DNA of 64,000 bases from Reyranella sp. (GCF_965249915.1 NZ_OZ252257.1:4850276-4914275); one strand, 5' to 3'. Positions 8,778 to 47,068 are shown, numbered from the stretch's first letter. The notes: generated from the sequence alone by a model not told the origin. Numbers and translations are program-made.

Positions 8778-8835
8778 GACCCATTCGCCTCATCCTTCGA
8801 GACGCCGCGCCTCGCACGGCTTCTCAGGATGAGGT
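8778..8835. repeat. REP1 family, half copy (right arm only)
   Basis: cctcatccttcgagacgccgcgc...ttctcaggatgaggt matches the right arm of the full copies at 43211-43346 and 46934-47068. It lies between the convergent dnaJ and ABC ATPase genes. Confidence 0.7.
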
Positions 8836-8848
8836 CATTGTTGAGATG

Positions 8849-27589: not shown

Positions 27590-28078
27590 ATGGCAATGAC
27601 CGTCGCGAAGAACACGATCTGCATCTGGTTCGACAAGGACGCGGAGGCCGCGGCCCGCTTCTATGCCGCGACCTTTCCCGACAGCGAGGTGACGGCCGTC
27701 CATCGCGCGCCCAGCGACTATCCGTCGGGCAAGAAGGGCGACGTGCTGACCGTGCAGTTCACGGTCTGCGGCATCCCCTGCCTCGGCCTCAATGGCGGGC
27801 CGGTGTTCAAGCAGACCGAAGCCTTCTCGTTCCAGATCGCCACCGACGACCAGGAAGAGACCGACCGCTACTGGAACGCCATCGTCGGCAATGGCGGCCA
27901 GGAAAGCGCCTGCGGCTGGTGCAAGGACCGATGGGGCCTGTCATGGCAGATCACGCCGCGCGTGCTCACCGAGGCGATGGCGGCCGGCGGCGAGGAGGCG
28001 AAGCGCGCCTTCGAGGCGATGATGGGCATGAAGAAGATCGACGTCGCCAGGATCGAGGCGGCGCGTCGAGGCAAGTAA
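27590..28078 (+). CDS. VOC/PhnB-like protein (3-demethylubiquinone-9 3-methyltransferase domain family)
   Basis: 162-aa ORF with family hallmarks (...TVCGIPCLGLNGGP.F...FSFQI...DRYWNAI...CGWCKDRWGLSWQI). Confidence 0.8.
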   Translation: MAMTVAKNTICIWFDKDAEAAARFYAATFPDSEVTAVHRAPSDYPSGKKGDVLTVQFTVCGIPCLGLNGGPVFKQTEAFSFQIATDDQEETDRYWNAIVGNGGQESACGWCKDRWGLSWQITPRVLTEAMAAGGEEAKRAFEAMMGMKKIDVARIEAARRGK

Positions 28079-28098
28079 GCCATCACTTCAAACAATAT

Positions 28099-28110
28099 CC
28101 TCACCCTGAG
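28099..28110. repeat. REP1 copy, left fragment split off by the IS110 insertion
   Basis: cctcaccctgag is identical to the first 12 nt of the intact copies. The rest of the copy resumes at 29235. Confidence 0.7.
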
Positions 28111-28125
28111 CGACCGTCGTGTTGG

Positions 28126-29049
28126 TCAAGCGTTTGCCCATTGTTTTCTGTCCCTGAGGATGGCGTTGAGGATGGTCACGAGCTTGCGCATGCAAGCGAC
28201 GATGGCGACCTTTGCCGGCTTTCCTGCGGCGCGCAGGCGATGATAGGTCAGCGCCAAGGGCAGCTTGCGGCGGATGGAGACGAGGATGCTCATGTAGAGG
28301 GCAGCCCGTACGACGGGTCGTCCTCCCGCGATGGTACGGCGGCCACGCAAGGTGCCGCTGTCGCGATTGAACGGGGCGACGCCGGTCAGGGAAGCAATCT
28401 CGCGTCGGCCGAGACGGCCCAGTTCAGGCAGTTCGGCGATCAGGGTGCGGGCGATCCTGGGCCCGATGCCGGGAACGCTGATCAGAAGGTCCTCCGCTTC
28501 CCGCCAGGTCGGTGTTCCCCGGACGGCGGTGTCGATGTCGTCGTCGATCTGTTCGAGCTGGGCCTTCAAGGTGGCAAGCACGCGATCGACGCTCTTGAGG
28601 GTGCGTCGAACTGTGAGCATGCGCCGGCGATTGCTCTCGGCCCCGATCATCTCGACGAGCTGACGGCGGCGGGCCATCAGTTCGCCCAACAGTCTGGACT
28701 GCTCGTCAGCGAGCGGTCGCGCCGGTGGGTTCACCGCCTCGGCGAAGTGGGCGATGACAGCGGCATCCAGCGCATCGGTCTTGGCCAGCCGTGCGGTGGC
28801 CCGGGCGAAGTCTCGGATCTGCCGTGGATTGACGACCGCCACGGGCAGGCCCGCCGCGCCCAGGCCTGCCGCCACGATCGTCTCGAAGCCACCGGTTGCT
28901 TCGAGCACGATCAGAGCAGGTGCCATTTTACTCAGCCGCCCAATCAGGTCCTCGATGCCTTCTCCGTTGCGGGCAACGGTGAAGGCCTCGCCGGCGGGGC
29001 GCACATGAACATCCAGGCGCTCTTTCGCCACATCGATACCTACGAACAT
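28126..29049 (-). CDS. IS110 family transposase (DEDD RuvC-like domain plus Tnp Ser domain recombinase)
   Basis: ATG 29049. MFVGIDVAKERLDVHV..., LEATGG, AKTDALDA and the C-terminal ISVPGIGP and FNRDSG motifs. The upstream ORF extension runs into REP DNA and was rejected. Confidence 0.9.
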   Translation of the reverse strand: MFVGIDVAKERLDVHVRPAGEAFTVARNGEGIEDLIGRLSKMAPALIVLEATGGFETIVAAGLGAAGLPVAVVNPRQIRDFARATARLAKTDALDAAVIAHFAEAVNPPARPLADEQSRLLGELMARRRQLVEMIGAESNRRRMLTVRRTLKSVDRVLATLKAQLEQIDDDIDTAVRGTPTWREAEDLLISVPGIGPRIARTLIAELPELGRLGRREIASLTGVAPFNRDSGTLRGRRTIAGGRPVVRAALYMSILVSIRRKLPLALTYHRLRAAGKPAKVAIVACMRKLVTILNAILRDRKQWANA

Positions 29050-29234
29050 GGATCTTGGCTCCCATCCTTGCGCATGCGGGCTCGCGGTTCGGCCCAGGCG
29101 ACCGTTCGGGATCACAAAATCAACGGTGGAGGCGCCGAGCTCAGGGACGGGCTTGGAGGCCCCAGGAGCCTGCGGGCTCTCCACCGAGACCGCACCTGCA
29201 ACTCTACGCCGGCGCGGCCGTGTCTTGATACAAG
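29050..29234 (-). ncRNA. candidate IS110 bridge RNA locus (5' non-coding end of the element)
   Basis: 185-nt non-coding left end, in the position and size range where IS110-group elements encode bridge RNA. It contains a 7-nt match to the target flank. Structure not verified. Confidence 0.35.
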
Positions 29235-29337
29235 GAGCGGCCCGAAGGGTCGCGTCTCGAAGGGTGGGCACGCGCACCCCGTCTGTTGCCCATCCTTCGA
29301 GACGCCGTGCTTTGCGCGGCTCCTCAGCATGAGGTGG
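29235..29337. repeat. REP1 copy, remainder (right of the IS110 insertion)
   Basis: gagcgg...gcgtctcgaagggtgggcacgcgcacc...gcccatccttcgagacg...ctcctcagcatgaggtgg. Confidence 0.75.
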
Positions 29338-29352
29338 ATTTACAGAGAGACG

Positions 29353-29670
29353 CTACGCCGCGTCGGCGGTGATCGTGTCGGCGTCGTTGTCGACCACGAC
29401 GGCGGTCTCGAAATAGCGGATGTCGGGCGGGGCGCCGTAGCGCTCGGCGATATAGGCCTGCCATTGCGGCGTATAGACCGCCTCGGCGTCGGCGCGGCTC
29501 TTCCAGAGATAGACACCGCCGCCGATCCGCTTCTCCGCGTCGAACAGATAGTATTTCCGGACCAGCCCCTTCATGCCGCGATATTTCGGCGCCGAACCCT
29601 TGAACAGTTCGGCGGCCTTCTTCGCATCGATGTCGGCCGGCAGCTTGAAATTCACGATGGCGGTGATCAT
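29353..29670 (-). CDS. YdhR-like putative monooxygenase (dimeric alpha/beta-barrel family)
   Basis: 105-aa ORF from ATG 29670, preceded by ggagga. MITAIVNFKLP...GGGVYLWKSRADAE resembles YdhR. Confidence 0.6.
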   Translation of the reverse strand: MITAIVNFKLPADIDAKKAAELFKGSAPKYRGMKGLVRKYYLFDAEKRIGGGVYLWKSRADAEAVYTPQWQAYIAERYGAPPDIRYFETAVVVDNDADTITADAA

Positions 29671-29681
29671 GCGATCCTCCT

Positions 29682-31079
29682 TCAAACGGGGGCGGCGCGC
29701 TCCTCGCGCACCTTCCAGAGCAGGATGAAGCCTACCACCAGGAAGAACAGAACGCAGGCCATGCCGATGCGGGTGGACTGCGTCGCCGCCGTGACGGTCG
29801 CGATGGCGAACGGCGCCATCCACGCCGTGGCCCGGCCCGAGAGGGCGAACAGGCCGTAGAATTCCCCCGTCATGCCCGGCGGCGCGATGCGGCCCACCAT
29901 CGTGCGGCTGGCCGCCTGCATCGGCCCCATGCAGAAGCCGAGAATGAGCGCGAAGCCCATCAGCACCTTTTCCTGCAGCGAGCCGAACAGGCCACGGGTC
30001 GGGCTGATCGGGTCGGCCGGCACGACGTAGAAGACGTGCGTGGCCGTGACGCCGACGATGCCCAGGGTCGCCACGATCACCCCGGCGATGGCGATCTGCA
30101 CCGTCCGCTTGCTGCCGATCCAGTCGTCCAGCCGGCCGCCGAGGAACGCACCGGGAATCGCGAAGACCGTCAGGACGATGCCGAAGATGCCGAGCGTCAC
30201 CGTGCTCCAGCCGAAGGTCGCGGCGGCATAGACACCGCCGAAGGCGATGATGGCCGCGAGCCCGTCATTGTAGAGCATGAAGGCGATGAGATAGCGCAGC
30301 GCGTTGCCGTAGCGCGGCAGACGCTTCAGCGTCGAGAGCAGCGAGCGGCCGCCTTCCCGCGCGGCGACGAGCAGGGGCTGGCGCCGCGCACCGGCGGAAT
30401 CCGGCGTGAACAGGAACATCGGCAGCACGAAGATCATGATCCAAAGCGCCGACGCGGGCCCGACCAGGCGCTCCAGCTCGTGGCTGGCGGGATCGAGGCC
30501 GAACAGCGGCCGGTCGTTCGAGGCCGCCAGGCCGAACAGGGCCGGCATCGACACGGCAAGCACGACGATCAGCGAGACCAGGCCGCCGCAATAGCCCAGC
30601 CCCCAGCCGTAGCCGCTCAGCCGGCCCATGCGCTCGGGCCGTACGATGTTCGGGAGCTGGGCATTGTTGAACACGATCGACATCTCAGCACCGACCGTGG
30701 CCAGGATGACCGCCCAGCTGATCGGCAGGATGAGGTCGGGCCGGTTGGGATAGGCGAACCACAGGCCGGCGCATCCAACGACCAGCAGGAGCTGGAACGC
30801 GAGGATGAAGGGCTTGCGACGGCCGCCGGCATCGGCCATGGCGCCGAGGAACGGGCTCATCAGCGCGATCAGCACGCCCGAAGCCGATTGCGTGAACCCC
30901 CACGCCGCTTGCCCCTGCACCGGATCGCCGACCAGCACGTTGGCGAAGTAGGGCGCGAAGATGAAGGTGGTGATGATGGTGAAGAAGGGCTGGTTGGCCC
31001 AGTCGAACAGCGCCCAGCTGAACTGGCCGAGAGTCGAGGCTTCACGGACGGGCGGCGGGGCCGCGTGAGAATCTGTCAT
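29682..31079 (-). CDS. MFS transporter (UMF1/Atg22-like)
   Basis: 465-aa polytopic ORF with about 12 TM helices. N-terminal ...WALFDWANQPFFTIITTFIFAPYF is typical of the UMF1 family. Confidence 0.85.
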   Translation of the reverse strand: MTDSHAAPPPVREASTLGQFSWALFDWANQPFFTIITTFIFAPYFANVLVGDPVQGQAAWGFTQSASGVLIALMSPFLGAMADAGGRRKPFILAFQLLLVVGCAGLWFAYPNRPDLILPISWAVILATVGAEMSIVFNNAQLPNIVRPERMGRLSGYGWGLGYCGGLVSLIVVLAVSMPALFGLAASNDRPLFGLDPASHELERLVGPASALWIMIFVLPMFLFTPDSAGARRQPLLVAAREGGRSLLSTLKRLPRYGNALRYLIAFMLYNDGLAAIIAFGGVYAAATFGWSTVTLGIFGIVLTVFAIPGAFLGGRLDDWIGSKRTVQIAIAGVIVATLGIVGVTATHVFYVVPADPISPTRGLFGSLQEKVLMGFALILGFCMGPMQAASRTMVGRIAPPGMTGEFYGLFALSGRATAWMAPFAIATVTAATQSTRIGMACVLFFLVVGFILLWKVREERAAPV

Positions 31080-31128
31080 GCCGGGTCACTATGCCCGAGA
31101 GCAGCCACTCTTCATAAGCCCCCTGAGC

Positions 31129-31228
31129 AAGGGGCCCTCGCGGCGCTCGGGATGACACCGTTTGCTGCATCGGCGCACTGCGTCCATCTCGACAAGATTG
31201 TCATCCCGAGCGCCGCGAGGGACCCTTA
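31129..31228. repeat. REP2 family palindromic element
   Basis: 29-nt arms aaggggccctcgcggcgctcgggatgaca / tgtcatcccgagcgccgcgagggaccctt. It fills the nudB-MFS gap and touches the nudB stop codon. Confidence 0.75.
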
Positions 31229-31663
31229 CGCTTTCACCCGCCGCTGCAGCTGCCAGATCGCATCCCGGTTGGTCGGCGAGAACACCTTCTTCATGGCCTC
31301 CTGCCAAGGCAGCCAAAGCTGGGCGACGTGCTCGGTGGGATCGAGCGTGGCCACGGTCCGTTCGGGCACCTGGAAGCCGAACACATGCTCGACATTGTGG
31401 GTGACGTCCGGCGCGTAGCGGGCACGCCACTGGGCCCAGATCTCGTAGCGGTTGGTCTGGCGCCAGTCGGTGAGCGTCCCGACGGCCAATCCGGTCTCTT
31501 CGAGCAGTTCGCGACGGGCCGTCGCCTCGAGGTCCGGATCGTCCAGTTCGCGTGACCCGGTCACGGACTGCCAGAGCCCGGTCCCCGTGCGCTCCAGCAC
31601 CAGCACGTCCAGCCGGGGCGTATGAACCACCACCAGCACCGATTCGGGGATCTTGAAGCCCAT
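31226..31663 (-). CDS. nudB: dihydroneopterin triphosphate diphosphatase (NUDIX)
   Basis: 145-aa ORF with a Nudix box ([11 protein letters not shown]) and NudB-specific stretches ([20 protein letters not shown]). Confidence 0.85.
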
Positions 31664-31740
31664 GCCGCAGCATAGCCCGGAACATTGACTCCGGGCCTCC
31701 CGCCGCTATGGTCCGGCGGCATTTTTCGAGGGATTTTTCG

Positions 31741-32580
<840 letters not shown>

Positions 32581-32591
32581 TCACTCAGGTT

Positions 32592-32622
32592 CTTCCCCTT
32601 TGCGGAGTCCGCAAAGGGGAAG
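32592..32622 (+). terminator. long hairpin immediately after dapD (terminator-like)
   Basis: cttcccctttgcgga / tccgcaaaggggaag, a near-perfect 15-bp stem. It is the first of four consecutive hairpins in 32581-32709. Confidence 0.5.
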
Positions 32623-32709
32623 TGCCCTCGTCTTACGAGGGCGATGGAGTCATGGCCCTCCGTCGTCGTAGGACGACGACACCTCCCCATTCGAATGGGA
32701 AGGCTCAAT

Positions 32710-33174
32710 TCATATGTGCCGCTTCCACTCCGGCTGGGTCCTGAGGTGCGCGCCTTCCTTGGCGAGGATCTTCGACGTGCGCTCGGGCGCGAAGCCCAGT
32801 TCGACGAAGGCGGGCCCGACATTGGCCACCTCGCGATAGTCGAGGATCAGCCCGTCGCGCAGCTGCATCATCGAGCATCCTTCGAAGCCGACGCGCTTGC
32901 CCTCGGCGCCGGGCAGCTTCGAGACGTAGCTGAACGTGTAGTAGGCGTAGAGCATCCTGCCGTCGCTGACCGGCCGGTGCATGTCCCAGCGGAACTCGTG
33001 CGCGGTGCGATGGAACCAGTCGTCGATCATCTCGGCGATGCGCTCGCGGCCCTTGAAATCGCCGTAGAACACGTCGTGATAGACGGCGTCCTCGGTGAAC
33101 AGACTGGCGAACGCCTTGCCGTCGCGGCGCTCCACCGCCGAGCAGAAGGCCTTCAGCAGCTCCTGTGTGCTCAT
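32710..33174 (-). CDS. SnoaL-like / NTF2 family protein
   Basis: ATG 33174 preceded by ggagga. MSTQELLKAFCSAVERRDGKAFASLFTEDAVYHD... is a typical SnoaL-like N-terminus. Confidence 0.75.
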   Translation of the reverse strand: MSTQELLKAFCSAVERRDGKAFASLFTEDAVYHDVFYGDFKGRERIAEMIDDWFHRTAHEFRWDMHRPVSDGRMLYAYYTFSYVSKLPGAEGKRVGFEGCSMMQLRDGLILDYREVANVGPAFVELGFAPERTSKILAKEGAHLRTQPEWKRHI

Positions 33175-33206
33175 GCATTCCTCCAATTGGATTGGTTGGG
33201 CAGACA

Positions 33207-33761
33207 CTAGCCCATCTTGTCGAGGAATGCCGGAGGGACGGCATCTGCCAGCCACACGCGGCCATCGACCTTATAGAAACGATGACCTTGCGCTTGGGCA
33301 TCCCGCGCCCGGACGCCCAGCAGGACAGGCGTCGAACTCTTGCGCAAGCCGACCTCGCGAGCGCCTGTCAGGTCGACGGAAAGATGAACATGCGTCCGCT
33401 CCATCGGGCGCAGCCCTTCCTTCACGATGGCTTCCGCCGCCTCGGGTGAGGTTCCGTGGTAGAGCATGGCCGGCGGTTCGATCGCCGGCCGGTCGATGGC
33501 CGCCTCGACCGAATGCCCGTAGGCCGCACGAATGCGCCCCTCGAAGATCTCGTGACGCTTCTTCTCGAAAGCGCTTCCGATCGCCTCCAGGTCGGCCGTC
33601 GTCACGTCGCGCCATCGCGCGTCCGAAGCGCGAACCGCCGCAATGAACGCGTCGAGGGCCACCCAGCCGTCGGCGTCCAGTTTCAGCCCGTAGGCAGCCG
33701 GTTCATGTCGCAGCGCGTGCGACACCAGCTTGCTCAGGTCGCGAAGGTCCTTCTTTTCCAT
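33207..33761 (-). CDS. kptA: RNA 2'-phosphotransferase (Tpt1/KptA family)
   Basis: 184-aa ORF with LSKLVSHALRHEP...GL.LD..GW and HGTS...I...GL motifs of Tpt1/KptA. Confidence 0.85.
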   Translation of the reverse strand: MEKKDLRDLSKLVSHALRHEPAAYGLKLDADGWVALDAFIAAVRASDARWRDVTTADLEAIGSAFEKKRHEIFEGRIRAAYGHSVEAAIDRPAIEPPAMLYHGTSPEAAEAIVKEGLRPMERTHVHLSVDLTGAREVGLRKSSTPVLLGVRARDAQAQGHRFYKVDGRVWLADAVPPAFLDKMG

Positions 33762-33836
33762 GGAAATCCATAATGCGAGGCCTGGCCCGCACCGTCATGG
33801 TGTACTGTAACGCCGCGCTCTAACGGAGACTGTCGA

Positions 33837-34391
33837 ATGAGCACATGGATCTTCCTCGGCATCGTCGTCGCCATCGGCCTGTGGCTGATCGCCGTCTATA
33901 ACGGCCTCGTCGGCGGCCGCAACCAGGCGCAGACCGCGTGGAGCCAGATCGACGTGCAGCTGAAGCGCCGGCACGATCTCATTCCCAACCTGGTGCAGGT
34001 GGTGAAGGACGCGATGGGCTACGAGCAGGAGACGCTCACCAAGGTGATCCAGGCGCGCAACAACGCGGTGGCGGCGAGCGGCAATGCCGCACAATCGGGG
34101 CCGGCCGAGGCGGCGCTCAGCCAGGCGACGCACGGTCTGTTCGCCCTGATGGAGAACTATCCGACCCTCAAGGCCAACGACAATGTCATGCAGCTCCAGG
34201 AGGAGCTGACGGCCACCGAGAACAAGATCGCCTTCGCACGCCAGTTCTACAACGACTCGGTGAACACCTATAACACCCGCCGCCAGAGCTTCCCGGCGGT
34301 TCTGGCCGCGGCGTCGCTGGGCTTCGGCCCGATGGACCTGTTCAACATGCCGGAGTCCGAGCACGACGTGCCGAAGGTCGCGCTGCGCTGA
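33837..34391 (+). CDS. LemA family protein
   Basis: 184-aa ORF with an N-terminal TM helix and the LemA signature (YNGLV...W.QIDVQLKRRHDLIPNLV...YPTLKAN). Confidence 0.9.
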   Translation: MSTWIFLGIVVAIGLWLIAVYNGLVGGRNQAQTAWSQIDVQLKRRHDLIPNLVQVVKDAMGYEQETLTKVIQARNNAVAASGNAAQSGPAEAALSQATHGLFALMENYPTLKANDNVMQLQEELTATENKIAFARQFYNDSVNTYNTRRQSFPAVLAAASLGFGPMDLFNMPESEHDVPKVALR

Positions 34392-34404
34392 GAGGGCACG
34401 GCGC

Positions 34405-35352
34405 ATGAGCGCCACCACCGACTTCGTCGCCGCCCAGCACCAGAACCGCCGCAACACGATTGTGCTGCTGGCGGTTCTCACCCTGTTGGCCGGCGGGATC
34501 GGCTATCTGGTTGGCGCGCTGCTGGAGACCGAGTCCTCGGGTTCGCTGCCGCCGGTGAGCCAGATGGGCATCGCGGCCGCCGGCCTGATGGCGGCCGTCA
34601 GCATCGGCTGGAGCGCGATCTCGCTGGCGGTGGGCGACAAGATGGTGCTGTCGATGGCCGGCGCCAAGGTGATCGAAAAGCAGGACGCGCCGCAGCTCTA
34701 CAACGTGGTCGAGGAGATCTCGATCGCCGCGGGCGTGCCGATGCCCCGCGTCATGGTGCTGGAGACCGACGCGCTGAACGCCTTCGCTACCGGCAACAAG
34801 GTCGGCAGCGGCACGATCGCGGTCACGCGCGGGCTGCTGAATTCGCTGAACCGCGACGAGCTGCAGGGCGTGGTGGCGCACGAGATGGCGCACCTCCGCA
34901 ACCTCGACACGCGTTACATGGTCGTGGTCGGCGTGACCGTAGGCCTGATCGCGCTGGTCTGCGACATGGCGCTGCGCACGATGAATTTGGGCCGGATGCG
35001 CAGCGACGACCGCAAGGGCAGCTCGGGTGGCGGTATCCTGATCGTCGTGCTGCTGGTCGTCGCGATCCTGGCACCGCTCGCGGCCAAGGCGGTGCAGATG
35101 GCGGTATCCCGGCAGCGCGAGTATCTCGCCGACGCGACCTCCGTACAGTTCACGCGCAATCCCAATGGCCTCATCTCCGCGCTGGGCAAGCTCGCGGAGA
35201 AGGCCGCCCCCTTTCCCGGAGTGAGCCGTGCCACGCAGCATCTCTTCATCGTCAATCCGATCAACCAGTTCACCTCGAAGACGCCGGCGCTTCTCGCCAC
35301 CCATCCCGATATCGCGGATCGCATCGCTCGCCTGCGCAATCTGGGCGCTTAG
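34405..35352 (+). CDS. M48 family metallopeptidase (HtpX-like)
   Basis: 315-aa ORF with TM helices and the HEMAHLRNLD zinc motif. It directly follows the lemA-like gene. Confidence 0.88.
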   Translation: MSATTDFVAAQHQNRRNTIVLLAVLTLLAGGIGYLVGALLETESSGSLPPVSQMGIAAAGLMAAVSIGWSAISLAVGDKMVLSMAGAKVIEKQDAPQLYNVVEEISIAAGVPMPRVMVLETDALNAFATGNKVGSGTIAVTRGLLNSLNRDELQGVVAHEMAHLRNLDTRYMVVVGVTVGLIALVCDMALRTMNLGRMRSDDRKGSSGGGILIVVLLVVAILAPLAAKAVQMAVSRQREYLADATSVQFTRNPNGLISALGKLAEKAAPFPGVSRATQHLFIVNPINQFTSKTPALLATHPDIADRIARLRNLGA

Positions 35353-36262
35353 CACCGGGCTCGCGGCGGCCTTCGACCTGCAGGGCCATCGCGGCGCGCG
35401 CGGGCTGGCGCCGGAGAACACGCTGGCCGCTTTCAAGCTGGCGCAGGACCTGGGCGTCACGACCCTCGAGACCGACCTCGCGGTGACGCGCGACGGGATC
35501 GTCGTCATCAGCCACGACCCTTATCTCAATCCCGACCTGACGCGCGGGCCGGACGGGCAGTGGCTCACGGCTGCGGGACCGGCCATCCGCACGCTGACCC
35601 TGGATGAACTGAAGCGCTACGACATCGGCCGCGTGAACCCGGCCAGCAAGTACGCCCAGCAGTTCCCGGAACAGAAGCCGGTCGATGGCCAGCGCTTCCC
35701 GACTTTGCCCGAATTCTTCGCGCAGGCGGCCCCCGGGGTGCGCTTCAACATCGAGATCAAGACCGATCCGGGCAAACCCGACCTCACCCTCGACCCCGCC
35801 GCCTTTGCCGCGGTTGCCGTCGACGGCATTCGCAAGGCCAAGGCGGAGGCGCGCAGCACGCTGCAGTCGTTCGACTGGCGCGGCCTGATCGCGGCCCGCA
35901 AGCTGGCGCCCGAGATCTCCACCGGCTGCCTCAGCATCGAGAGCAACAACTTCGACACGGTGCAGCGCGGCAGCGGACGGCCTTCCCCCTGGCTGGGCGG
36001 ACTCGACCTCACGGCCCAGGGCGGCTCCGTGCCCCGGCTCGCCCAGGCGGCCGGCTGCGCGACCTGGTCGCCGTTCTGGCGGAACGTCACGGCGGAGAAC
36101 GTCAAAGAGGCCCACGGGCTCGGCCTCAAGGTCGTCCCCTGGACGGTGAATGCCCCGGCCGAGATGGGGCGGCTGATCGACCTTGGCGTGGACGGGCTGA
36201 TCACCGACTACCCCGACCGCGGGGTGCAGATTCTCAGTGCCAAAGGCCTGAAAGCTCGCTAG
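35228..36262 (+). CDS. glycerophosphodiester phosphodiesterase (GDPD family), secreted
   Basis: The GDPD core starts at ...FDLQGHRGARGLAPENTLAAF. The only canonical in-frame start upstream of the signal peptide is GTG 35228, giving a 125-nt overlap with the M48 gene. Start uncertain. Confidence 0.8.
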   Translation: MPRSISSSSIRSTSSPRRRRRFSPPIPISRIASLACAIWALSTGLAAAFDLQGHRGARGLAPENTLAAFKLAQDLGVTTLETDLAVTRDGIVVISHDPYLNPDLTRGPDGQWLTAAGPAIRTLTLDELKRYDIGRVNPASKYAQQFPEQKPVDGQRFPTLPEFFAQAAPGVRFNIEIKTDPGKPDLTLDPAAFAAVAVDGIRKAKAEARSTLQSFDWRGLIAARKLAPEISTGCLSIESNNFDTVQRGSGRPSPWLGGLDLTAQGGSVPRLAQAAGCATWSPFWRNVTAENVKEAHGLGLKVVPWTVNAPAEMGRLIDLGVDGLITDYPDRGVQILSAKGLKAR

Positions 36263-36288
36263 GCGGTTGACTCGGGCAGCCTCTGTGT

Positions 36289-36300
36289 TCTGTATACAGA
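36289..36300. promoter_or_regulatory. GntR-type operator candidate
   Basis: Perfect 12-bp palindrome tctgtatacaga (GT-N-AC core) ending 1 nt before the GntR start codon. TTGACT lies at 36267-36272. Confidence 0.5.
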
Positions 36301-36301
36301 C

Positions 36302-36973
36302 ATGCGCCCCATCCTTCCCGAGCCCGATCTTTCCGAGCGGATCCACGATTCGGTCCTCGAAGCGATCTGCTCCGGCGAGCTGAAATCCGGCGCCCGCATC
36401 ACCCAGGAGGAGATCGCCCAGCAGTTCGGCGTGTCGCGCCAGCCGGTCCTGCAGGCCATGATGCTGCTGCGCCGCGAGGGTTTCCTGGTCGATGCCGGCC
36501 GCAAGGGTGTGTGCGTGGCGCCACTCGACGTCCAGCAGGCGCGCAATCTCTACGTCGTCCGCGCCGCCCTCGACGGTGCCGCGGCCCGGCTCGCCGCCTC
36601 GAACTACACGCCCCATCTCGTGCAGCGCGGCCGTGCCCTGCTCGACGTCGGCCGGCGTGCCGTGGCGAGCGGTTACGTGCCGTCGGTCATCGAGGCCGAC
36701 ATCGATTTCCATCTCTTCGTCTACGAGGCCTCCGGCAATCCCGTGATCGGCGAGACCGCCCAGCCGCACTGGCAGCATCTGCGCCGGGTGATGGCCGCGG
36801 CCTTGAGCGAGGAGGATCTGCGGATCAGCGTGTGGGACGAACACGAGGCCATCCTGCGCGCGCTCGAAGCGGGCCAGGCGGTCGAGGCCGAAGCGCTCTG
36901 CCGCGGCCATGCCGAACAGATGGCCGGCATTCTGACGGGACGATTGAAAGCTGTGATTTCCCGCGCCGCCTGA
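36302..36973 (+). CDS. GntR family transcriptional regulator (FadR/FCD subfamily)
   Basis: 223-aa ORF with an N-terminal wHTH (...GARITQEEIAQQFGVSRQPVLQAMMLLRREGF) and an FCD-like C-terminal domain. Confidence 0.9.
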   Translation: MRPILPEPDLSERIHDSVLEAICSGELKSGARITQEEIAQQFGVSRQPVLQAMMLLRREGFLVDAGRKGVCVAPLDVQQARNLYVVRAALDGAAARLAASNYTPHLVQRGRALLDVGRRAVASGYVPSVIEADIDFHLFVYEASGNPVIGETAQPHWQHLRRVMAAALSEEDLRISVWDEHEAILRALEAGQAVEAEALCRGHAEQMAGILTGRLKAVISRAA

Positions 36974-37021
36974 AGACGGCGTTCACGACAAGCAAGACGA
37001 CACGGCAAAGGAGGAACCGCC

Positions 37022-37822
37022 ATGAAGCTCACTTCTGAGCAGCTGAAGCAATTCGACGAAGAGGGCTATCTCTTCTTCCCCGATTATTTCTCGCCGGAAG
37101 AGACCCAGATCCTGAAGAACTCGGTGCCCGAGGTCTTCGCCCAGCGCCGGCCTGAGAACGTGCGCGAGAAGAGCGGCGACGTCGTGCGCACCGCCTTCGC
37201 GGTCCACACCTATCATCCGGTGTTCGAGGCGCTGGTCCACCATCCGCGCTTCGTCGAGCCGGCCGAGCAGCTCCTGAAGGACAAGACCTACATCCATCAG
37301 TTCAAGATCAACGGAAAGGCCGCCTTCGACGGCGACGTCTGGCAGTGGCACCAGGATTACGGCACCTGGAAAGCCGACGACGCCATGCCCGAGCCGCGCG
37401 CCATGAACCTCGCGGTGTTCATCGACGAGGTGAATGAATTCAACGGCCCGCTCTGGTTCATTCCCAGGAGCCACAAGAAGGGCGCGATCGAGGCCAGCCA
37501 CGACCTCACCACGACTTCCTATCCGCTGTGGGTGATCGACAACGACACCATCGCCAAGCTGGTCGGCCAGGGCGGCATCGTCGCGCCCAAGGGCGGCCCG
37601 GGCTCGGCGATCTTCTTCCACGGCACGCTGGTCCACGGCAGCGGCCCCAACATGTCGCCGTGGGATCGCCAGATCATCTATGTGACCTACAACGCGGTCA
37701 GCAACGCGATCCGCCAGTTCAAGCGGCCGGACTATATCGCGCACCGCGACTTCACGCCGGTCGATCCCTGGGAAGACGATGCGGTGATCCGCGCCGTCAA
37801 CCGCAAGGCCGCGGCGGAATAA
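37022..37822 (+). CDS. phytanoyl-CoA dioxygenase (PhyH) family Fe(II)/2OG oxygenase, ectoine-hydroxylase-like
   Basis: 266-aa ORF. WHQDYGTWKADDAMP resembles the EctD signature, and a distal His (FFHGTLVHGSGPN) is present. Confidence 0.8.
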   Translation: MKLTSEQLKQFDEEGYLFFPDYFSPEETQILKNSVPEVFAQRRPENVREKSGDVVRTAFAVHTYHPVFEALVHHPRFVEPAEQLLKDKTYIHQFKINGKAAFDGDVWQWHQDYGTWKADDAMPEPRAMNLAVFIDEVNEFNGPLWFIPRSHKKGAIEASHDLTTTSYPLWVIDNDTIAKLVGQGGIVAPKGGPGSAIFFHGTLVHGSGPNMSPWDRQIIYVTYNAVSNAIRQFKRPDYIAHRDFTPVDPWEDDAVIRAVNRKAAAE

Positions 37823-37844
37823 TCAAGACACTCCGGAGGAAACC

Positions 37845-39209
37845 ATGAGTCTCCATCGCATGCTTCTGGCGCGCGCCGCCGAAGCCAATCCGTTGCGCAT
37901 CGGCGTCATCGGCGCCGGCAAGTTCGGCTCGATGTACCTGTCGCAGATCCCGACCACGCCGGGCATCCATCTGCTGGGCATCGCCGACCTCTCGCCCGAC
38001 CGCGCGCGCGAGAACCTGGCGCGGCTGGGCTGGAAGCCCGACGTGACCTCGGCAAGCTCGTTCGAGGACGCCCGCAAGCACGGCAGCACCCATCTCACCG
38101 ACGACTGGCGCGCGCTGGTCAGCCATCCCGAGATCGACATCATCGTCGAATCGACCGGCGACCCGATCGCCGCCGTCGAACATGCGCTCGAAGCCTTCAG
38201 GCATGGCAAGAGCGTCGTGATGGTGACGGTCGAGGCCGACGCCTTCTGCGGCCCGTTGCTGGCCAAGCGCGCCGCCGCCGCCGGCGTGATCTACAGCCTG
38301 GCCTATGGCGACCAGCCGGCGCTGATCTGCGAGCTGGTCGACTGGGCGCGCACCTCGGGCTTCGAGGTGACCGCCGCCGGCCGCGGTCACAAGTGGCTGC
38401 CGCACTTCGCGCAGTCGACGCCCGAGACGGTGTGGAAGTACTGGGGCCTCAACGAGGAACAGGCCAAGCGCGGCGGCCTGAACCCCAAGATGTTCAACTC
38501 CTTCCTCGACGGCTCCAAGCCCGCCATCGAGAGCACCGCCGTGGCCAACGCCACCGGCCTCACGCCGGCGCCGGACGGGCTGGCCTTCCCGCCGTGCTCG
38601 GTGGAGGACCTGCCCTTCGTGATGCGGCCGATCTCCGAGGGCGGCCAGCTCCATCACAAGGGCCAGGTCGAAGTCGCCTCCTCGCTGGAGAAGGACGGGC
38701 GCGCCATCCCCTACGAGATCCGCAAGGGCGTGTGGGTCGTGTTCGAGGCGGCCACCGAGTACCAGAAGAACTGCTTCGAGGAGTACATGCTGCAGACCGA
38801 CCCGAGCGGCCGGTACTCCGTCATGTACAAGCGCTGGCACCTGATCGGCCTCGAGGTCGGCATGTCGGTCGCCTCGATCGGCCTGCGCAAGGAGCCGACC
38901 GGCACGCCGATCGGCTTCCACGCCGACGTCATCGCCACCGCCAAGCGCGACCTCAAGCCCGGCGAGATGCTGGACGGCGAGGGCGGCTACACGGTCTACG
39001 GCAAGCTGTTCCCGTCGGAGAAGTCGACCGGCCTCGGCAGCCTGCCGCTCGGCCTCGCCCACAACGTCAAGCTGCTCAAGCCGATCAAGGCCGGCCAGTC
39101 GCTGACCTACGCCGACGTGGTGATGGACGAGTCTCTGACCGCCGTGAAGCTCCGCCGCGAAATGGAACGCGACTTCGCCCCGGCGGCGACCAAGATCGCG
39201 GCTCAGTAA
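37845..39209 (+). CDS. NAD(P)-binding oxidoreductase with C-terminal SAF domain (homoserine-dehydrogenase-like, COG4091 type)
   Basis: 454-aa ORF with Rossmann start RIGVIGAGKFGSMY. The overall sequence is typical of the SAF-domain dehydrogenase family. Confidence 0.75.
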   Translation: MSLHRMLLARAAEANPLRIGVIGAGKFGSMYLSQIPTTPGIHLLGIADLSPDRARENLARLGWKPDVTSASSFEDARKHGSTHLTDDWRALVSHPEIDIIVESTGDPIAAVEHALEAFRHGKSVVMVTVEADAFCGPLLAKRAAAAGVIYSLAYGDQPALICELVDWARTSGFEVTAAGRGHKWLPHFAQSTPETVWKYWGLNEEQAKRGGLNPKMFNSFLDGSKPAIESTAVANATGLTPAPDGLAFPPCSVEDLPFVMRPISEGGQLHHKGQVEVASSLEKDGRAIPYEIRKGVWVVFEAATEYQKNCFEEYMLQTDPSGRYSVMYKRWHLIGLEVGMSVASIGLRKEPTGTPIGFHADVIATAKRDLKPGEMLDGEGGYTVYGKLFPSEKSTGLGSLPLGLAHNVKLLKPIKAGQSLTYADVVMDESLTAVKLRREMERDFAPAATKIAAQ

Positions 39210-39334
39210 GGCTTCGTCCCTGGCGGCGTGGGGCAATCGTCGCTACGCCCGGAGGGCAGTGGAATGGAGGGACCCGTTTTCCTCCATTTGACGGCTTTGG
39301 AGTCTTTCCGAGTCCGATGGAATCACCACACCGC

Positions 39335-39437
39335 CCTCATACTGAGGAGCGCGCCGCAGGCGCGCGTCTCGAAGCATGGGACGAGCACCGCGCGTGTTGC
39401 CGATCCTTCGAGACGCGGCCTGCGGCCGCTCCTCAGA
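39335..39437. repeat. REP1 copy (left arm plus most of the right arm), truncated by IS insertion
   Basis: cctcatactgaggagcgcgccgcaggcgcgcgtctcgaagcatggg...ccgatccttcgagacgcgg...gctcctcag. The remainder resumes at 41039. Confidence 0.75.
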
Positions 39438-39504
39438 TTCTATGTGGCGACGAGAGGTCGAGAGGTAGGTTTGGAGTTGCGAGAACCGAACCTACGGAGA
39501 AGTT

Positions 39505-40677
39505 ATGACGTCTTCACATCCCATAGACACCCCCGCCGCCGGCGAGAAGGATGCCACGTTGTACGTGGCGTTTGAACTGAGCAAGTCGAAGTGGCTGATC
39601 GGTATGGTGATGTCCGGCGAGAGCAAGATGAGCCGCCACCAAGTGGCTGGCGGCGATACGGCGGCGGTGTGGCAGCTGATCTCGAAGAAGCGCGCCCATG
39701 CGGAGAAGCATGGCCGGCCGGTGCGTGTGGTGAGCTGCTACGAGGCCGGCTATGACGGCTTCTGGTTCGATCGTTGGCTGGCCGGGCAGGGCGTCGCCAA
39801 TCGGGTGCTCGATCCGTCGAGCATCGAGATGCCGCGGCGCGCGCGGCAGGCCAAGACGGACCGTCTGGACCTCGAGCGTCTGATGCGGGTGCTGATCCGC
39901 CACGAGGGTGGCGAGCCGAAGGTCTGCAGCGTGGTTCATCCGCCGACCCCCGAGCAGGAAGACGCCCGTCGGGTGTCGCGCGAGCGGGACCGGCTGATCG
40001 GCGAGCGCACCGCCCATGTCAACCGCATCAAGGGTCTGTTGCATGGCCAGGGGATCCGCGACGTGCATCCGCGCCGCAAAGGCTTCCTCGAGCAGCTTGC
40101 CCAGCTTCGGACCGGCGACGGCCGCGCCGTGCCGGCCAACCTGGCGGCCGAGATCCAGCGCGAGCACGCCCGTCTGGTGCAGGTCGGCGAGCAGATTGCC
40201 GAAGTCGAGAGCCAGATGACGGCGGAGCGTGCCGCCGCGGCGCCGGACAGTCGGGCCAGCCAGGTCAACCAGCTGATCAGCCTGAAGAGCGTCGGGCCGG
40301 TCGGCGGCGAGACGCTGGTCAACGAGGTATTCTGGCGCGACTTCCAGAACCGGCGCCAGGTCGGAGGCTATTTTGGCCTGGCCGGGACGCCGTTCGACAG
40401 CGGCCAGAGCTCGCGCGAGCAGGGCATCAGCAAGGCCGGCAACGCCCGCGCCCGGACCTTGGCCATCGAGCTTTCATGGCTATGGCTGCGCTACCAGCCC
40501 GCCAGCACCTTGAGCCTGTGGTTCACGAGCCGCGTCGGCGATCAAAAAGGCCGTGTCAGACGCATCGCCATTGTGGCCCTGGCGCGCAAGCTGATGGTGG
40601 CGCTGTGGCGCTTCCTCACCCAGGGCCTGGTGCCCGAGGGCGCCAGGCTGCGAGCTGCCGCACCGGCCGGCCGCTGA
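39505..40677 (+). CDS. IS110 family transposase (IS1111-like)
   Basis: 390-aa ORF with N-terminal acidic motifs (VAFELSK, CYEAGYDGF, AKTDRLDLERL) and a C-terminal Tnp domain (LKSVGPVGG, PFDSGQSSREQGISKAGN). Confidence 0.9.
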   Translation: MTSSHPIDTPAAGEKDATLYVAFELSKSKWLIGMVMSGESKMSRHQVAGGDTAAVWQLISKKRAHAEKHGRPVRVVSCYEAGYDGFWFDRWLAGQGVANRVLDPSSIEMPRRARQAKTDRLDLERLMRVLIRHEGGEPKVCSVVHPPTPEQEDARRVSRERDRLIGERTAHVNRIKGLLHGQGIRDVHPRRKGFLEQLAQLRTGDGRAVPANLAAEIQREHARLVQVGEQIAEVESQMTAERAAAAPDSRASQVNQLISLKSVGPVGGETLVNEVFWRDFQNRRQVGGYFGLAGTPFDSGQSSREQGISKAGNARARTLAIELSWLWLRYQPASTLSLWFTSRVGDQKGRVRRIAIVALARKLMVALWRFLTQGLVPEGARLRAAAPAGR

Positions 40678-41038
40678 ACGGCGGCGGCCCGGTGTGTTGC
40701 GCAGGAAGCTGATGATGACCGTCCTCATCCATGGACCATGCGGTACCGCTGTCTCAGAAGGGTCTCATCGTTTCCTGGGCAAGACCTCGACCGTGCATGA
40801 GGGATTTGGGTGCGGGGCGCAGCGACGCCCGACCGGATATAAGGTGATGCCGTCGACACAACGTGCATTGGCCAGACGCCCAGACTTCCAACGCAACGCG
40901 CCGAAGGCCGCCCCTCCACGCACCCCTTCCAGCGCCGCGCTCGCGCGCGGCACTCTCAAGCTTCCATCCCCGAGACGGTCCGATGATTGAGGGACAAAAA
41001 ATCCAACCCGCCCCTTGACCGTTCAGCGCTCATATAAG
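40678..41038 (+). ncRNA. candidate bridge/seek RNA locus (3' non-coding end of the element)
   Basis: 361 nt of non-coding DNA downstream of the recombinase, as in IS1111-group elements. It contains cctcatcc (antisense of the target flank) and atataaggtgatg (a mimic of the right-end junction). Structure not verified. Confidence 0.35.
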
Positions 41039-41072
41039 GATGAGGTGGTGCGTGTCGACCTGAAGCGGAAAG
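41039..41072. repeat. REP1 copy, terminal fragment after the IS
   Basis: gatgaggtggtgcgtgtcgacctgaagcggaaag parallels gatgaggtggtgtgggtgaacctgaagcgaaaag at 47035-47068. Confidence 0.7.
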
Positions 41073-43155: not shown

Positions 43156-43210
43156 TCAGACGAGCATAGCGGCGGCGACAAGATCATCGCCCCGCTGCAC
43201 TCGATTACGA

Positions 43211-43346
43211 CCTCACCCTGAGGAGCGCTCCAGAGGAGCGCGTCTCGAAGGGTGGGCACGAGCACCTCGCCTGTTGCCCATCCTTCGAGACGGCGCGGAG
43301 TTTACCCCGAGGTATTCGAGGGGCGCCTTCTCAGGATGAGGGTGAG
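43211..43346. repeat. REP1 family element, complete copy, intercistronic
   Basis: cctcaccctgaggagcgc...gcgtctcgaagggtgggcacgagcacc...gcccatccttcgagacgg...ttctcaggatgagggtgag. It lies between the SBP and permease genes of one operon. Confidence 0.8.
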
Positions 43347-46867: not shown

Positions 46868-46933
46868 ACGGTCACGGTTGCCGCCTAGGGTCTTTCCGAC
46901 TGAGACGGAAGCACATTGGACGTCCCAAGAAGA

Positions 46934-47068
46934 CCTCACCCTGAGGAGCGCGCCGCAGGAGCGCGTCTCGAAGGGTGGGCACGAGCACCACGTCTGTTGC
47001 CCATCCTTCGAGACGGCCCTTCGGGCCTCCTCAGGATGAGGTGGTGTGGGTGAACCTGAAGCGAAAAG
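46934..47068. repeat. REP1 family element, complete copy
   Basis: Best-preserved nested palindrome. Left arm cctcaccctgaggagcgcgccgcaggagcgcgtctcgaagggtgggc; right arm gcccatccttcgagacggcccttcgggcctcctcaggatgaggtgg. It abuts the def stop codon. Confidence 0.8.

What the first reader, a model, noticed from the sequence alone, without database searches (positions are those of the whole stretch)
28099..41072. Two unrelated IS110-family elements use the same REP arm motif, in the same orientation, with cores offset by 3 bp
Reading both insertions in the direction of their recombinase genes, the target is the same arm motif, g-c-t-c-c-t-c-a-g-g.
- The element at 28111-29234 is flanked by CT at motif positions 5-6 (ccgctc[ct]...[ct]cagggtgagg).
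- The element at 39438-41038 is flanked by AG at positions 8-9 (gctcctc[ag]...[ag]gatgagg).
- One element sits in the left arm of its REP1 and the other in the right arm. These arms are mutual reverse complements.

The two elements differ in three respects:
- The recombinases show little similarity by eye.
- The architectures differ (guide region 5' versus 3').
- The presumptive core dinucleotides differ.

The window therefore offers a natural side-by-side case of independent RNA-guided (inferred) targeting of one repeat family. REP1 copies may act as safe-harbour landing pads. Two of the five REP1 copies in this 64 kb are occupied.
Basis: partly seen in the sequence, partly recalled or inferred. 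Interest (0 to 1): 0.65.

Follow-up and report, generated by a model that had tools for sequence, protein, structure and literature searches.

The report
Two RNA-guided IS110 elements share one REP
Two distantly related IS110-family insertion sequences sit in opposite arms of the same palindromic repeat family, each carrying its own guide RNA that matches its arm; this is a clean natural example of a phenomenon already known from Pseudomonas and E. coli, not a new kind of system.

Summary
Each junction is ambiguous by exactly 2 bp: GCTC[CT]CAGGGTGAGG for E1 and GCTCCTC[AG]GATGAGG for E2.

Both non-coding regions hold guide segments that match these targets. The guides covary with the target in relatives. 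In the E1 family, 41 of 59 cognate right-target guides match perfectly, against 44 of 3388 non-cognate pairs. The E2 family shows four guide/target states.

Three refinements:
- The elements are distant homologues (27% identity), not unrelated.
- They do not recognise an identical site. E1's guide needs CTCAGGG and E2's needs GGATGAGG, so each is tuned to a different arm variant.
- E2's AG is CT on the other strand of the CCTNAGG palindrome, which explains the 3-bp offset.

Assembly-graph depth in the apparent source strain suggests about 10 E1 and 4-5 E2 copies, all with the same flanks.

Two IS110 elements sharing one REP site is already documented (ISPpu9/ISPpu10 in P. putida). I rate this a new member of a known kind, of moderate interest.

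The parts
28111..29234 (-). E1: IS110-group (IS621/ISCro4-like) insertion sequence, 1124 bp counting one copy of the CT core (29234-29233). The second CT copy (28110-28109) lies in the flank.
   Evidence: Boundaries fixed against empty REPs and four near-identical copies in Reyranella MAGs (L008-L011).
28126..29049 (-). E1 recombinase gene, 307 aa, with a DEDD RuvC-like domain, a Transposase_20 domain and the motif GVAPFNRDSG.
   Evidence: Pfam hits of 85.2 and 53.8 bits. Full-length match to ISCro4 (9t56, 1.2e-35) and IS621 (8wt6, 2.5e-32) transposases. The 383-aa GTG ORF runs past the IS end and is not the gene.
29050..29234 (-). E1 5' non-coding region, predicted to encode the bridge RNA. 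It has a 5' stem-loop (29219..29188), a target-binding loop (29186..29124) and a donor-binding loop (29121..29051).
   Evidence: Fold z = -2.49. Covariance model R1 finds the same RNA just upstream of the recombinase gene in about 73 of 80 relative loci, plus a few off-position hits. 90.2% of cells paired against 68.3% in shuffles, and 40 of 49 pairs show double-sided changes.
29164..29169 (-). E1 left-target guide GCUCCU. It has the same sequence as the target top strand GCTC+CT.
29140..29146 (-). E1 right-target guide CCCUGAG, complementary to CT+CAGGG.
   Evidence: It covaries with the target in L008-L011 and in 41 of 59 family combinations.
29097..29105 (-). E1 left-donor guide ACGGUCGCC, matching the IS right end ACGGTCG+CT. 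The second core base is mismatched.
   Evidence: The LDG matches the LD in nearly all relatives.
29066..29075 (-). E1 candidate right-donor guide CAUGCGCAAG. CAAG is complementary to CT+TG at the IS left end.
   Evidence: the ...GCAAGG motif is conserved across the family. The assignment rests on position in the loop and is an inference.
28124..28129 (-). -35 box TTGACC in the E1 right end. Together with TATCAA at 29230..29225 it would form a TTGACC-17 nt-TATCAA promoter at the circle junction.
   Evidence: 9 of 12 consensus positions. Circle formation was not observed.
39437..41038 (+). E2: IS110-family element with a 3' non-coding region, 1602 bp counting one copy of the AG core (41037-41038). 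The other AG (39435-39436) lies in the flank.
   Evidence: A joint skipping exactly 1602 bp is seen in run X12.
39505..40677 (+). E2 recombinase gene, 390 aa.
   Evidence: Pfam Transposase_20 at 40.8 bits and DEDD_Tnp_IS110 at 30.6 bits (cut-off 29). No PDB relative at E <= 1e-3. 7992 homologues, the named ones labelled IS110 family transposase.
40711..40770 (+). E2 predicted target-binding module. The base stem GAUGAUGACC/GGUCUCAUC encloses an internal loop that holds both target guides.
   Evidence: Consensus fold of six relatives. Alignments.
40723..40730 (+). E2 guide CCUCAUCC, complementary to the top strand G+GATGAGG (second core base plus right flank).
   Evidence: It covaries as TGTCATCC/GGATGACA, TTGTCGTCC/GGACGACAA and GTCGTCC/GGACGAC.
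40752..40757 (+). E2 guide UCUCAG, with the same sequence as the top strand (T/C)CTC+AG. It is invariant in the family, as is CTCAG in all left flanks.
40837..40843 (+). E2 donor guide-like AUAUAAG, matching the IS right end ATATA+AG. It follows a hairpin at about 40814-40831 that shows compensatory changes in relatives.
   Evidence: The guide and the donor end are both invariant, so the match is consistent but untested by covariation.
29235..29337 (.). REP copy B. Its body and right arm lie here; its left arm is split by E1, with the outer 12 bp at 28099-28110.
39334..39436 (.). REP copy C. Its left arm and body lie here; its right arm is split by E2, with the outer part at 41039-41049.
43210..43343 (.). 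Empty REP copy D. Its left arm is a perfect E1 target (GCTCCTCAGGG read on the minus strand). Its right arm CTTCTCAGGATGAGG is a perfect E2 target.
46933..47045 (.). Empty REP copy E. Its left arm is a perfect E1 target and its right arm a perfect E2 target.
8784..8836 (.). Half REP copy (right half only) whose arm CTTCTCAGGATGAGG is an unoccupied E2-type target.

Best explanation
The window, probably from a Reyranella genome, contains a family of ~110-bp palindromic extragenic repeats (REP). Two different IS110-family insertion sequences have each integrated site-specifically into one REP arm, each guided by its own element-encoded RNA.

**E1**
- E1 is an IS621/ISCro4-like element.
- Its 5' non-coding region encodes a bridge RNA with a target-binding loop (GCUCCU ... 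CCCUGAG) that specifies GCTC-CT-CAGGG.
- It also has a donor-binding loop (ACGGUCGCC ... CAUGCGCAAG) that specifies its own joined ends.
- Recombination occurs at the CT core.

**E2**
- E2 is a more distant family member with its guide RNA in the 3' non-coding region.
- One internal loop carries CCUCAUCC and UCUCAG, which specify CTC-AG-GATGAGG.

**How the two sites relate**
- The REP arm contains the palindrome CCTNAGG. E2's AG core is the CT of the complementary strand.
- Read in that frame, E2's loop has the IS621 order (left guide, then right guide).
- The two cores are therefore mirror positions, which gives the 3-bp offset.
- The guides also read the one position where the two REP arms differ (CAGGG versus CAGGA). 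As a result E1 uses one arm type and E2 the other.

**Shown versus inferred**
- Shown: element boundaries, protein families, RNA structure conservation, and guide/target complementarity with covariation.
- Inferred: expression of the RNAs, circular intermediates and actual recombination chemistry.
For: **Boundaries and cores**
-.

**Protein families**
- Pfam.
- E1 matches the IS621 and ISCro4 transposases along its full length.

**E1 RNA**
- The fold has two internal-loop modules.
- Model R1 finds the RNA just upstream of the recombinase gene in about 73 of 80 relative loci.
- Pair covariation: 90.2% of cells paired against 68.3% in shuffles and 33-47% in slid controls.

**E1 guide/target covariation**
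- Near-identical copies show three RTG states, two of them within one complete genome (L009 and L011).
- Family-wide, 41 of 59 cognate RTGs match perfectly against 44 of 3388 non-cognate pairs. Permutation gave 0 of 10000.

**E2 guide/target covariation**
- Four states.
- The consensus fold places both guides in one loop.
- The donor-module hairpin shows compensatory changes.

**Chance**
- Both guides in the right order occur in 14 of 20000 shuffles (E1) and 5 of 20000 shuffles (E2).

**Multi-copy consistency**
-.

**Other**
- A junction promoter TTGACC-17-TATCAA is possible for E1.
- Mechanism framework: PMC11208160 and PMC11187229.
Against: - There is no direct evidence that either RNA is made. 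Four RNA-seq runs gave no reads, and metatranscriptome contigs cover the whole element without direction.
- Rfam 15 has no matching family at gathering threshold.
- E1's left-target guide matches only 6 contiguous bases, and E2's only 5-6. Specificity rests mainly on the right-side guides.
- E2's guide for its left end (donor) was not found convincingly. The best candidate, GGGAUUU, needs three G-U pairs.
- E2's donor guide and donor end never vary, so that match is not tested by covariation.
- The copy numbers and uniform flanks in the source strain are inferred from assembly-graph depth, not from a finished genome.
- The alignment used for pair counts was fitted to the model.
Confidence: 0.85

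Rival explanations
1. The recombinases recognise the REP hairpin or sequence directly through protein-DNA contacts, as REP-associated tyrosine transposases or IS200/IS605 TnpA recognise hairpins. On this view the matches in the non-coding regions are incidental.
For: - The target is a palindrome that could extrude as a hairpin.
- The left-side guides are short, at 5-6 nt.
Against: - Guide segments change in step with the target in both families, while the proteins stay 91-97% identical (E1) or 65-98% identical (E2).
- Family members with the same RNA scaffold target many unrelated, non-REP sequences.
- Permutation test gave 0 of 10000.
- RNA guidance has been shown experimentally for IS621, ISEc11 and ISEc21 (PMC11208160, PMC11187229).
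Confidence: 0.04
2. The REP-like flanks belong to the elements. The IS would carry REP fragments as terminal sequences, so nothing is being targeted and the apparent shared motif is part of the mobile unit.
For: Contigs of collapsed IS copies always end in the same 8-12 flanking bases.
Against: - Joining the two flanks rebuilds a complete REP equal to the empty copies at 43210-43343 and 46933-47045.
- The REP body lies on one side only.
- Relatives of both elements with the same ends sit in non-REP sequences.
- An empty-site joint skips exactly 1602 bp.
Confidence: 0.03
3. One or both copies are inactive relics. They would have been spread among REPs by homologous recombination or duplication of REP-containing segments rather than by targeted transposition.
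For: - No direct evidence of activity in this strain.
- REP copies offer homology for recombination.
Against: - Both ORFs are intact and full length relative to homologues.
- Copies are near-identical and multi-copy, with different outer flanks.
- Guides match their own sites exactly, including within-genome variants (L009 versus L011).
Confidence: 0.08

Closest known systems
IS621 (E. coli) and ISCro4: IS110-group bridge recombinase elements with solved structures (8wt6, 9t56)
   Same: For E1:
- Full-length protein homology (E = 2.5e-32 and 1.2e-35).
- CT core.
- 5' non-coding RNA with a target loop (left guide then right guide) and a donor loop.
- Donor left end CT-TGTAT.
- A possible junction promoter.
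- A REP as the natural target.
   Different: - E1's recombinase is shorter (307 aa).
- The right-target guide is 7 nt and the left-target match only 6 nt, where the paper describes 9 and 4 for IS621.
- The target is a ~110-bp alphaproteobacterial REP, not the E. coli REP.
- Nothing has been tested experimentally here.
ISPpu9 and ISPpu10 in Pseudomonas putida KT2440
   Same: - Two IS110-family elements with modest protein similarity live in one genome.
- Both insert specifically into the same REP family.
- One is described with AG termini and the other with CT termini (PMC1525189, PMC12288879).
   Different: - Those two insert at the same position of the REP (between bases 9 and 10).
- The ISPpu9 paper places ISPpu9 in the IS110 group and puts its bridge RNA in the transcript upstream of tnp. 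I did not check the RNA position for ISPpu10.
- Here the cores are 3 bp apart.
- Here the two elements have 5' versus 3' guide regions.
- Here each is tuned to a different arm variant.
IS1111-group elements with 3' seekRNA (ISEc11, ISPa11, ISKpn4/ISPst6/ISPa25)
   Same: For E2:
- Long non-coding region downstream of the recombinase gene.
- The top-strand-complementary segment lies 5' of the bottom-strand-complementary one.
- ISPa11 also targets a REP.
- ISKpn4 and ISPa25 show that diverged transposases can share a target.
   Different: - E2's recombinase is 390 aa, whereas the paper gives 330-350 aa for IS1111-family transposases.
- No clear 7-17 bp subterminal inverted repeat was found, only an imperfect 26 of 39 match.
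- The spacing of the G..P....SG motif differs.
- E2 may belong to the minority of IS110-type elements with a downstream non-coding region mentioned in PMC11187229.

Membership tests
IS110 family, IS110 group (IS621-like bridge recombinase elements): E1 | Recombinase with an N-terminal DEDD RuvC-like domain and a C-terminal Transposase_20 domain carrying the conserved G..P....SG motif | tested here: met
   PF01548 at 85.2 bits and PF02371 at 53.8 bits. Aligned over residues 2-299 to ISCro4 and IS621. GVAPFNRDSG is present in that alignment.
IS110 family, IS110 group (IS621-like bridge recombinase elements): E1 | No terminal inverted repeats; a 2-bp core shared by donor and target appears at both junctions | tested here: met
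   CT at both junctions with exactly 2 bp of ambiguity. The best end-to-end inverted match is only 8 of 9 and internal.
IS110 family, IS110 group (IS621-like bridge recombinase elements): E1 | Structured RNA in the 5' non-coding end with two internal loops | tested here: met
   Fold. Covariance model hits just upstream of the recombinase gene in about 73 of 80 relative loci. Pair covariation. Expression of the RNA was not shown.
IS110 family, IS110 group (IS621-like bridge recombinase elements): E1 | Loop sequences complementary to the target and to the donor ends, covarying with them | tested here: met
   (41 of 59 against 44 of 3388; permutation 0 of 10000).
IS110 family, IS110 group (IS621-like bridge recombinase elements): E1 | Circular intermediate with a junction promoter | not testable with these tools
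   Only the sequence potential was seen: TTGACC-17 nt-TATCAA across the joined ends.
IS1111 group of the IS110 family: E2 | DEDD and Transposase_20 recombinase | tested here: met
   PF02371 at 40.8 bits. PF01548 at 30.6 bits, just above the cut-off of 29.
IS1111 group of the IS110 family: E2 | Long non-coding region downstream of the recombinase gene, holding the guide RNA, with the top-strand match 5' of the bottom-strand match | tested here: met
   A 361-nt 3' region. CCUCAUCC at 40723-40730 lies 5' of UCUCAG at 40752-40757. Covariation. The order rule comes from PMC11187229.
IS1111 group of the IS110 family: E2 | Subterminal inverted repeats of 7-17 bp | tested here: inconclusive
   No terminal pair appears among the 25 longest inverted repeats. 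Local alignment of the ends gives an imperfect 26 of 39 match starting 4 nt from the left end, and its significance was not assessed.
IS1111 group of the IS110 family: E2 | Transposase length 330-350 aa and the motif GL-P----S/TG (as described in PMC11187229) | tested here: not met
   The protein is 390 aa. The sequence is GLAGTPFDSG, with different spacing (translation). For this reason E2 is filed as an IS110-family element with IS1111-like architecture, not as a confirmed IS1111-group member.
REP / BIME-type extragenic palindromic repeats: REP1 | Imperfect palindrome, extragenic, present in many copies per genome | tested here: met
   Four full copies and one half copy in 64 kb, lying between ORFs. 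The conserved core reaches about 8000 word depth against about 245 for single-copy sequence in run X5.
REP / BIME-type extragenic palindromic repeats: REP1 | Associated RAYT (REP-associated tyrosine transposase) in the genome | not tested
   The whole genome was not available and none was looked for in the window.

The most novel reading that the evidence does not exclude
The two IS lineages partition a single REP family. Each guide reads the one asymmetric base pair that distinguishes the two arms (CAGGG versus CAGGA). The two elements recombine at mirror-image CT cores on opposite strands of the CCTNAGG palindrome. Near-identical E1 copies carry right-target guides retuned to each arm variant (GG, GA, CA), even within one genome. 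This would be an ongoing co-evolution between REP arm variants and IS guide loops, that is, niche partitioning or an arms race at single-nucleotide resolution. Such a system would be a tractable natural model for how bridge RNAs are reprogrammed in the wild.
Probability: 0.3. Interest if true: 0.55.

Novelty: new member of a known kind. Interest (0 to 1): 0.38.

Why it matters
This locus gives a compact natural comparison of the two guide-RNA layouts of the IS110 family (5' bridge RNA and 3' seekRNA-like) acting on one target family. It has three useful properties:

- The guide-to-target assignments are clear.
- Natural guide variants exist among near-identical elements.
- Unoccupied perfect target sites lie nearby.

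These properties could help in three ways:

- Annotating such elements in Alphaproteobacteria.
- Defining the less understood 3'-type RNA.
- Choosing orthologues for recombinase engineering.

It does not reveal a new mechanism. REP targeting by IS110 elements, RNA guidance, and two IS110 elements sharing one REP are all published.

Tried and rejected
**Searches that found nothing useful**
- Megablast of both elements against PLSDB plasmids gave only an 80-bp hit for E1 and nothing for E2.
- An exact-protein look-up for E1 found nothing on record. The source genome seems not to be served by that tool.
- Rfam 15 at gathering thresholds gave no family anywhere in the window.
- A PDB sequence search for E2 gave no hit.

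**Transcription**
- RNA-seq raw reads of four runs with a related organism label gave zero reads.
- Metatranscriptome contigs cover related E1 variants end to end but carry no direction and may include DNA. Transcription therefore remains unshown.

**E2 features not resolved**
- The search for E2's guide to its own left end found no exact match of 5 nt or more. Only weak G-U-rich candidates appeared.
- The search for IS1111-style subterminal inverted repeats in E2 was inconclusive.

**Readings rejected**
- The 383-aa GTG ORF for E1 crosses the IS boundary.
- The minimum-free-energy pairing of E1's two target guides with each other is an expected by-product of the shared core. I replaced it with an internal loop, which the family alignment supports.
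- I considered and rejected that the 3-bp offset is a boundary artefact. The ambiguity is exactly 2 bp at each element.

Full report
**1. What is in the sequence**

The stretch 28099-41072 contains two insertion sequences.
- E1 occupies 28111-29234 on the minus strand. Its ORF runs 29049..28126 (307 aa).
- E2 occupies 39437-41038 on the plus strand. Its ORF runs 39505-40677 (390 aa).

Both proteins hit Pfam DEDD_Tnp_IS110 and Transposase_20. They align at 27% identity over 283 residues, E = 7e-6. They are distant members of one family rather than unrelated.

E1 matches the structurally characterised ISCro4 and IS621 transposases along its whole length (1.2e-35 and 2.5e-32). E2 has no PDB relative at E <= 1e-3.

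**2. The repeat and the junctions**

The window holds four full copies and one half copy of a ~110-bp imperfect palindrome.
- Its outer arms are CCTCA(C/T)CCTGAGGAGCG ... CGCTCCTCAGGATGAGG.
- Its inner arms are CGTCTCGAAGG ... CCTTCGAGACG.

Joining the flanks of each IS rebuilds a complete copy like the empty ones at 43210-43343 and 46933-47045.

Each junction is ambiguous by exactly two bases.
- E1, read on its own strand: CCGCTC[CT]TGTATC...ACGGTCG[CT]CAGGGTGAGG.
- E2: GCTCCTC[AG]ATTCTA...CATATA[AG]GATGAGG.

The 3-bp offset is real. Contigs of other strains that carry empty arms switch alignment exactly at these dinucleotides. One skips exactly 1602 bp with two shared bases.

**3. Consistency beyond the window**

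Exact-protein look-up found E2 on seven short contigs. At least two have different outer flanks, and all have the same ctcctcag / gatgagg junctions.

Run X5 is identical to the window.
- Single-copy depth is about 245, E1 about 2409 and E2 about 1099.
- That corresponds to roughly ten and four to five copies.
- The assembly graph branches only after 12 shared flank bases (CCTCACCCTGAG) for E1 and 10 (GATGAGGTGG) for E2.

This is an indirect genome-wide survey and it agrees with strict site specificity.

A scan of representative genomes with the E1 protein returned 80 loci. The closest (91-97% identity) are Reyranella MAGs, so the window is probably from Reyranella.

**4. E1 carries an IS621-type bridge RNA that matches its target**

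The 185-nt region between the left end and the start codon folds into three parts.
- A 5' hairpin.
- A stem enclosing a loop with GCUCCU on the 5' side and CCCUGAG on the 3' side.
- A second stem enclosing ACGGUCGCC and CAUGCGCAAG.

I applied the IS621 rules (PMC11208160). The left guides equal the top strand of the left half-site plus core. The right guides are complementary to core plus the right half-site.
- The first loop specifies GCTC-CT-CAGGG, which is the actual target.
- The second loop specifies the element's own ends (ACGGTCG-CT and CT-TG...).

In five near-identical copies (window and L008-L011) the scaffold and donor loop are invariant. The right-target guide changes with the target:
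- CCCTGAG with CTCAGGG.
- TGCTGAG with CTCAGCA.
- TCCTGAG with CTCAGGA.

Two of these variants occur in one complete genome.

A covariance model built from these five sequences finds the RNA just upstream of the recombinase gene in about 73 of the 80 relative loci, plus a few off-position hits. On that alignment 90.2% of cells pair, against 68.3% in shuffles and 33-47% in slid controls. Forty of 49 pairs show double-sided changes. The caveat is that the alignment was fitted to the model.

I located right ends independently through the donor guide. The five non-core positions of the right-target guide then match the flank perfectly in 41 of 59 distinct guide/site combinations, against 44 of 3388 non-cognate pairs. 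Permutation gave 0 of 10000.

The joined ends would create TTGACC-17 nt-TATCAA, the junction promoter typical of the family. This is sequence potential only.

**5. E2 carries a guide module in its 3' region that also matches its target**

About 35 nt after the stop codon, a conserved stem (GAUGAUGACC / GGUCUCAUC) encloses a loop. The loop has CCUCAUCC on the 5' side and UCUCAG on the 3' side.
- CCUCAUCC is complementary to G+GATGAGG, the second core base plus the right flank.
- (U)CUCAG equals CTC+AG, the left flank plus core.

The order, top-strand match first, is the one reported for IS1111-type seekRNAs (PMC11187229).

Relatives at 65-98% protein identity show four guide/target states:
- CCTCATCC with GGATGAGG.
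- TGTCATCC with GGATGACA.
- TTGTCGTCC with GGACGACAA.
- GTCGTCC with GGACGAC.

CUCAG and the flank CTCAG never vary.

Further downstream, AUAUAAG matches the right end ATATA+AG. It follows a hairpin with compensatory changes. That guide and end are invariant, so the match is untested by covariation. A guide for the left end was not found convincingly.

Both target guides in the right order arise in 14 of 20000 (E1) and 5 of 20000 (E2) dinucleotide shuffles.

**6.

First, the shared motif is real (GCTCCTCAG), but the recognised sites are not identical.
- E1's guide needs CAGGG and E2's needs GGATGAGG.
- The two arms of this REP differ at exactly that base.
- In the window the E1 11-mer GCTCCTCAGGG occurs only in one arm type: one occupied and two free.
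- The E2 12-mer CTCAGGATGAGG occurs only in the other arm type: one occupied and three free.
- The two elements therefore use different arms of the same repeat, and perfect free sites remain for both.

Second, the arm contains the palindrome CCTNAGG.
- E2's AG is CT on the complementary strand, at the mirror position of E1's CT.
- In that frame E2's loop reads left guide CCUCAUCC then right guide CUCAG, the IS621 order.
- This is my inference. It explains both the different core and the 3-bp offset.

Third, the motif lies at the 3' end of either strand of the palindrome. "Same orientation" is therefore a consequence of the motif, not an extra coincidence.

An E1-family relative in another alphaproteobacterium (L030 and L032, 57% identity) targets CCTCGTC-CT-GAGGAGCG, the mirror position itself.

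**7. Comparison with what is known**

- REPs as specific targets of IS110-family elements were described in 2006 (PMC1525189).
- RNA guidance was shown in 2024 (PMC11208160, PMC11187229).
- Natural retargeting by loop changes has been reported (ISMch6).
- Diverged transposases sharing one target have been reported (ISKpn4 and ISPa25).
- Two IS110-family elements in one genome that use the same REP site, one with AG ends and one with CT ends, are known from P. putida KT2440 (ISPpu9 and ISPpu10).

The present case differs in three details. It pairs a 5'-RNA element with a 3'-RNA element. The cores are mirrored and offset. Each element is specific to one arm variant.

E1 meets every sequence-testable criterion of the IS621-like group.

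E2 meets the IS110-family criteria and has IS1111-like architecture. Its 390-aa protein, its motif spacing and its lack of a clear subterminal inverted repeat keep me from filing it as a confirmed IS1111-group member.

**8. Verdict**

- This is a well-resolved new instance of a known kind of system.
- Expression of the RNAs and activity of the elements remain untested.

Noticed in passing
L030:1313-1499 and L032:1313-1499 with their flanks: An E1-family relative (57% protein identity) in an uncultured alphaproteobacterium has guides and flanks CCTCGTC|CT|GAGGAGCG. That is the same REP-arm type read on the complementary strand, and it is the mirror position that E2 uses in the window.
   Followed up: partly
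L009 and L011 (both from NZ_OZ257251.1, a complete Reyranella chromosome): Two E1 copies in one genome carry different right-target guides (TGCTGAG and TCCTGAG). Each matches its own REP-arm variant (CAGCA and CAGGA). This looks like natural reprogramming among near-identical elements.
   Followed up: yes
L088-L094 and L097, flanks of the E2-like copies: These 98%-identical E2 copies sit in a different short repeat (...ttccggccagcctctcag|gatgaggtaagtgcttgaat...). The repeat recurs in tandem about 50-60 bp downstream. It fits the guide UCUCAG better than the REP arm does.
   Followed up: partly
L089:1-763 and L091:1-618: A second, different IS110-family gene (446-aa product) lies about 240-380 bp upstream of the E2-like recombinase gene, about 170-315 bp from the E2-like element's left end. 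This suggests clustered or nested IS110 insertions.
   Followed up: no
window 43295-43326: REP copy D carries an extra ~30-bp module (gagtttaccccgaggtattcgagggg) in its right half that is absent from copy E. The same module appears in the REP next to an E2 copy in L001. The REP family therefore has at least two structural subtypes.
   Followed up: no
window 28072-29359: Freshwater metatranscriptome contigs (runs X40 and X42) join about 28071/28074 to 29353/29360. They skip both E1 and the whole REP, so related strains appear to lack the repeat at this intergenic site.
   Followed up: no
window 29327 (run X7): In another organism's assembly, a contig matching this REP's right arm up to GCTCCTCAG continues directly into the E2 left end (ATTCTATGTGG...). 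E2 therefore occupies a similar right arm elsewhere. Whether any single REP carries E1 and E2 together was not determined.
   Followed up: no
L098-L114 left flanks: E2 relatives with guides TGTCATCC or TGTCGTCC all sit after a conserved (A/G)TCCTTCGCT(G/C)CGCTCAG. This suggests yet another repeat family serves as their target in other taxa.
   Followed up: no
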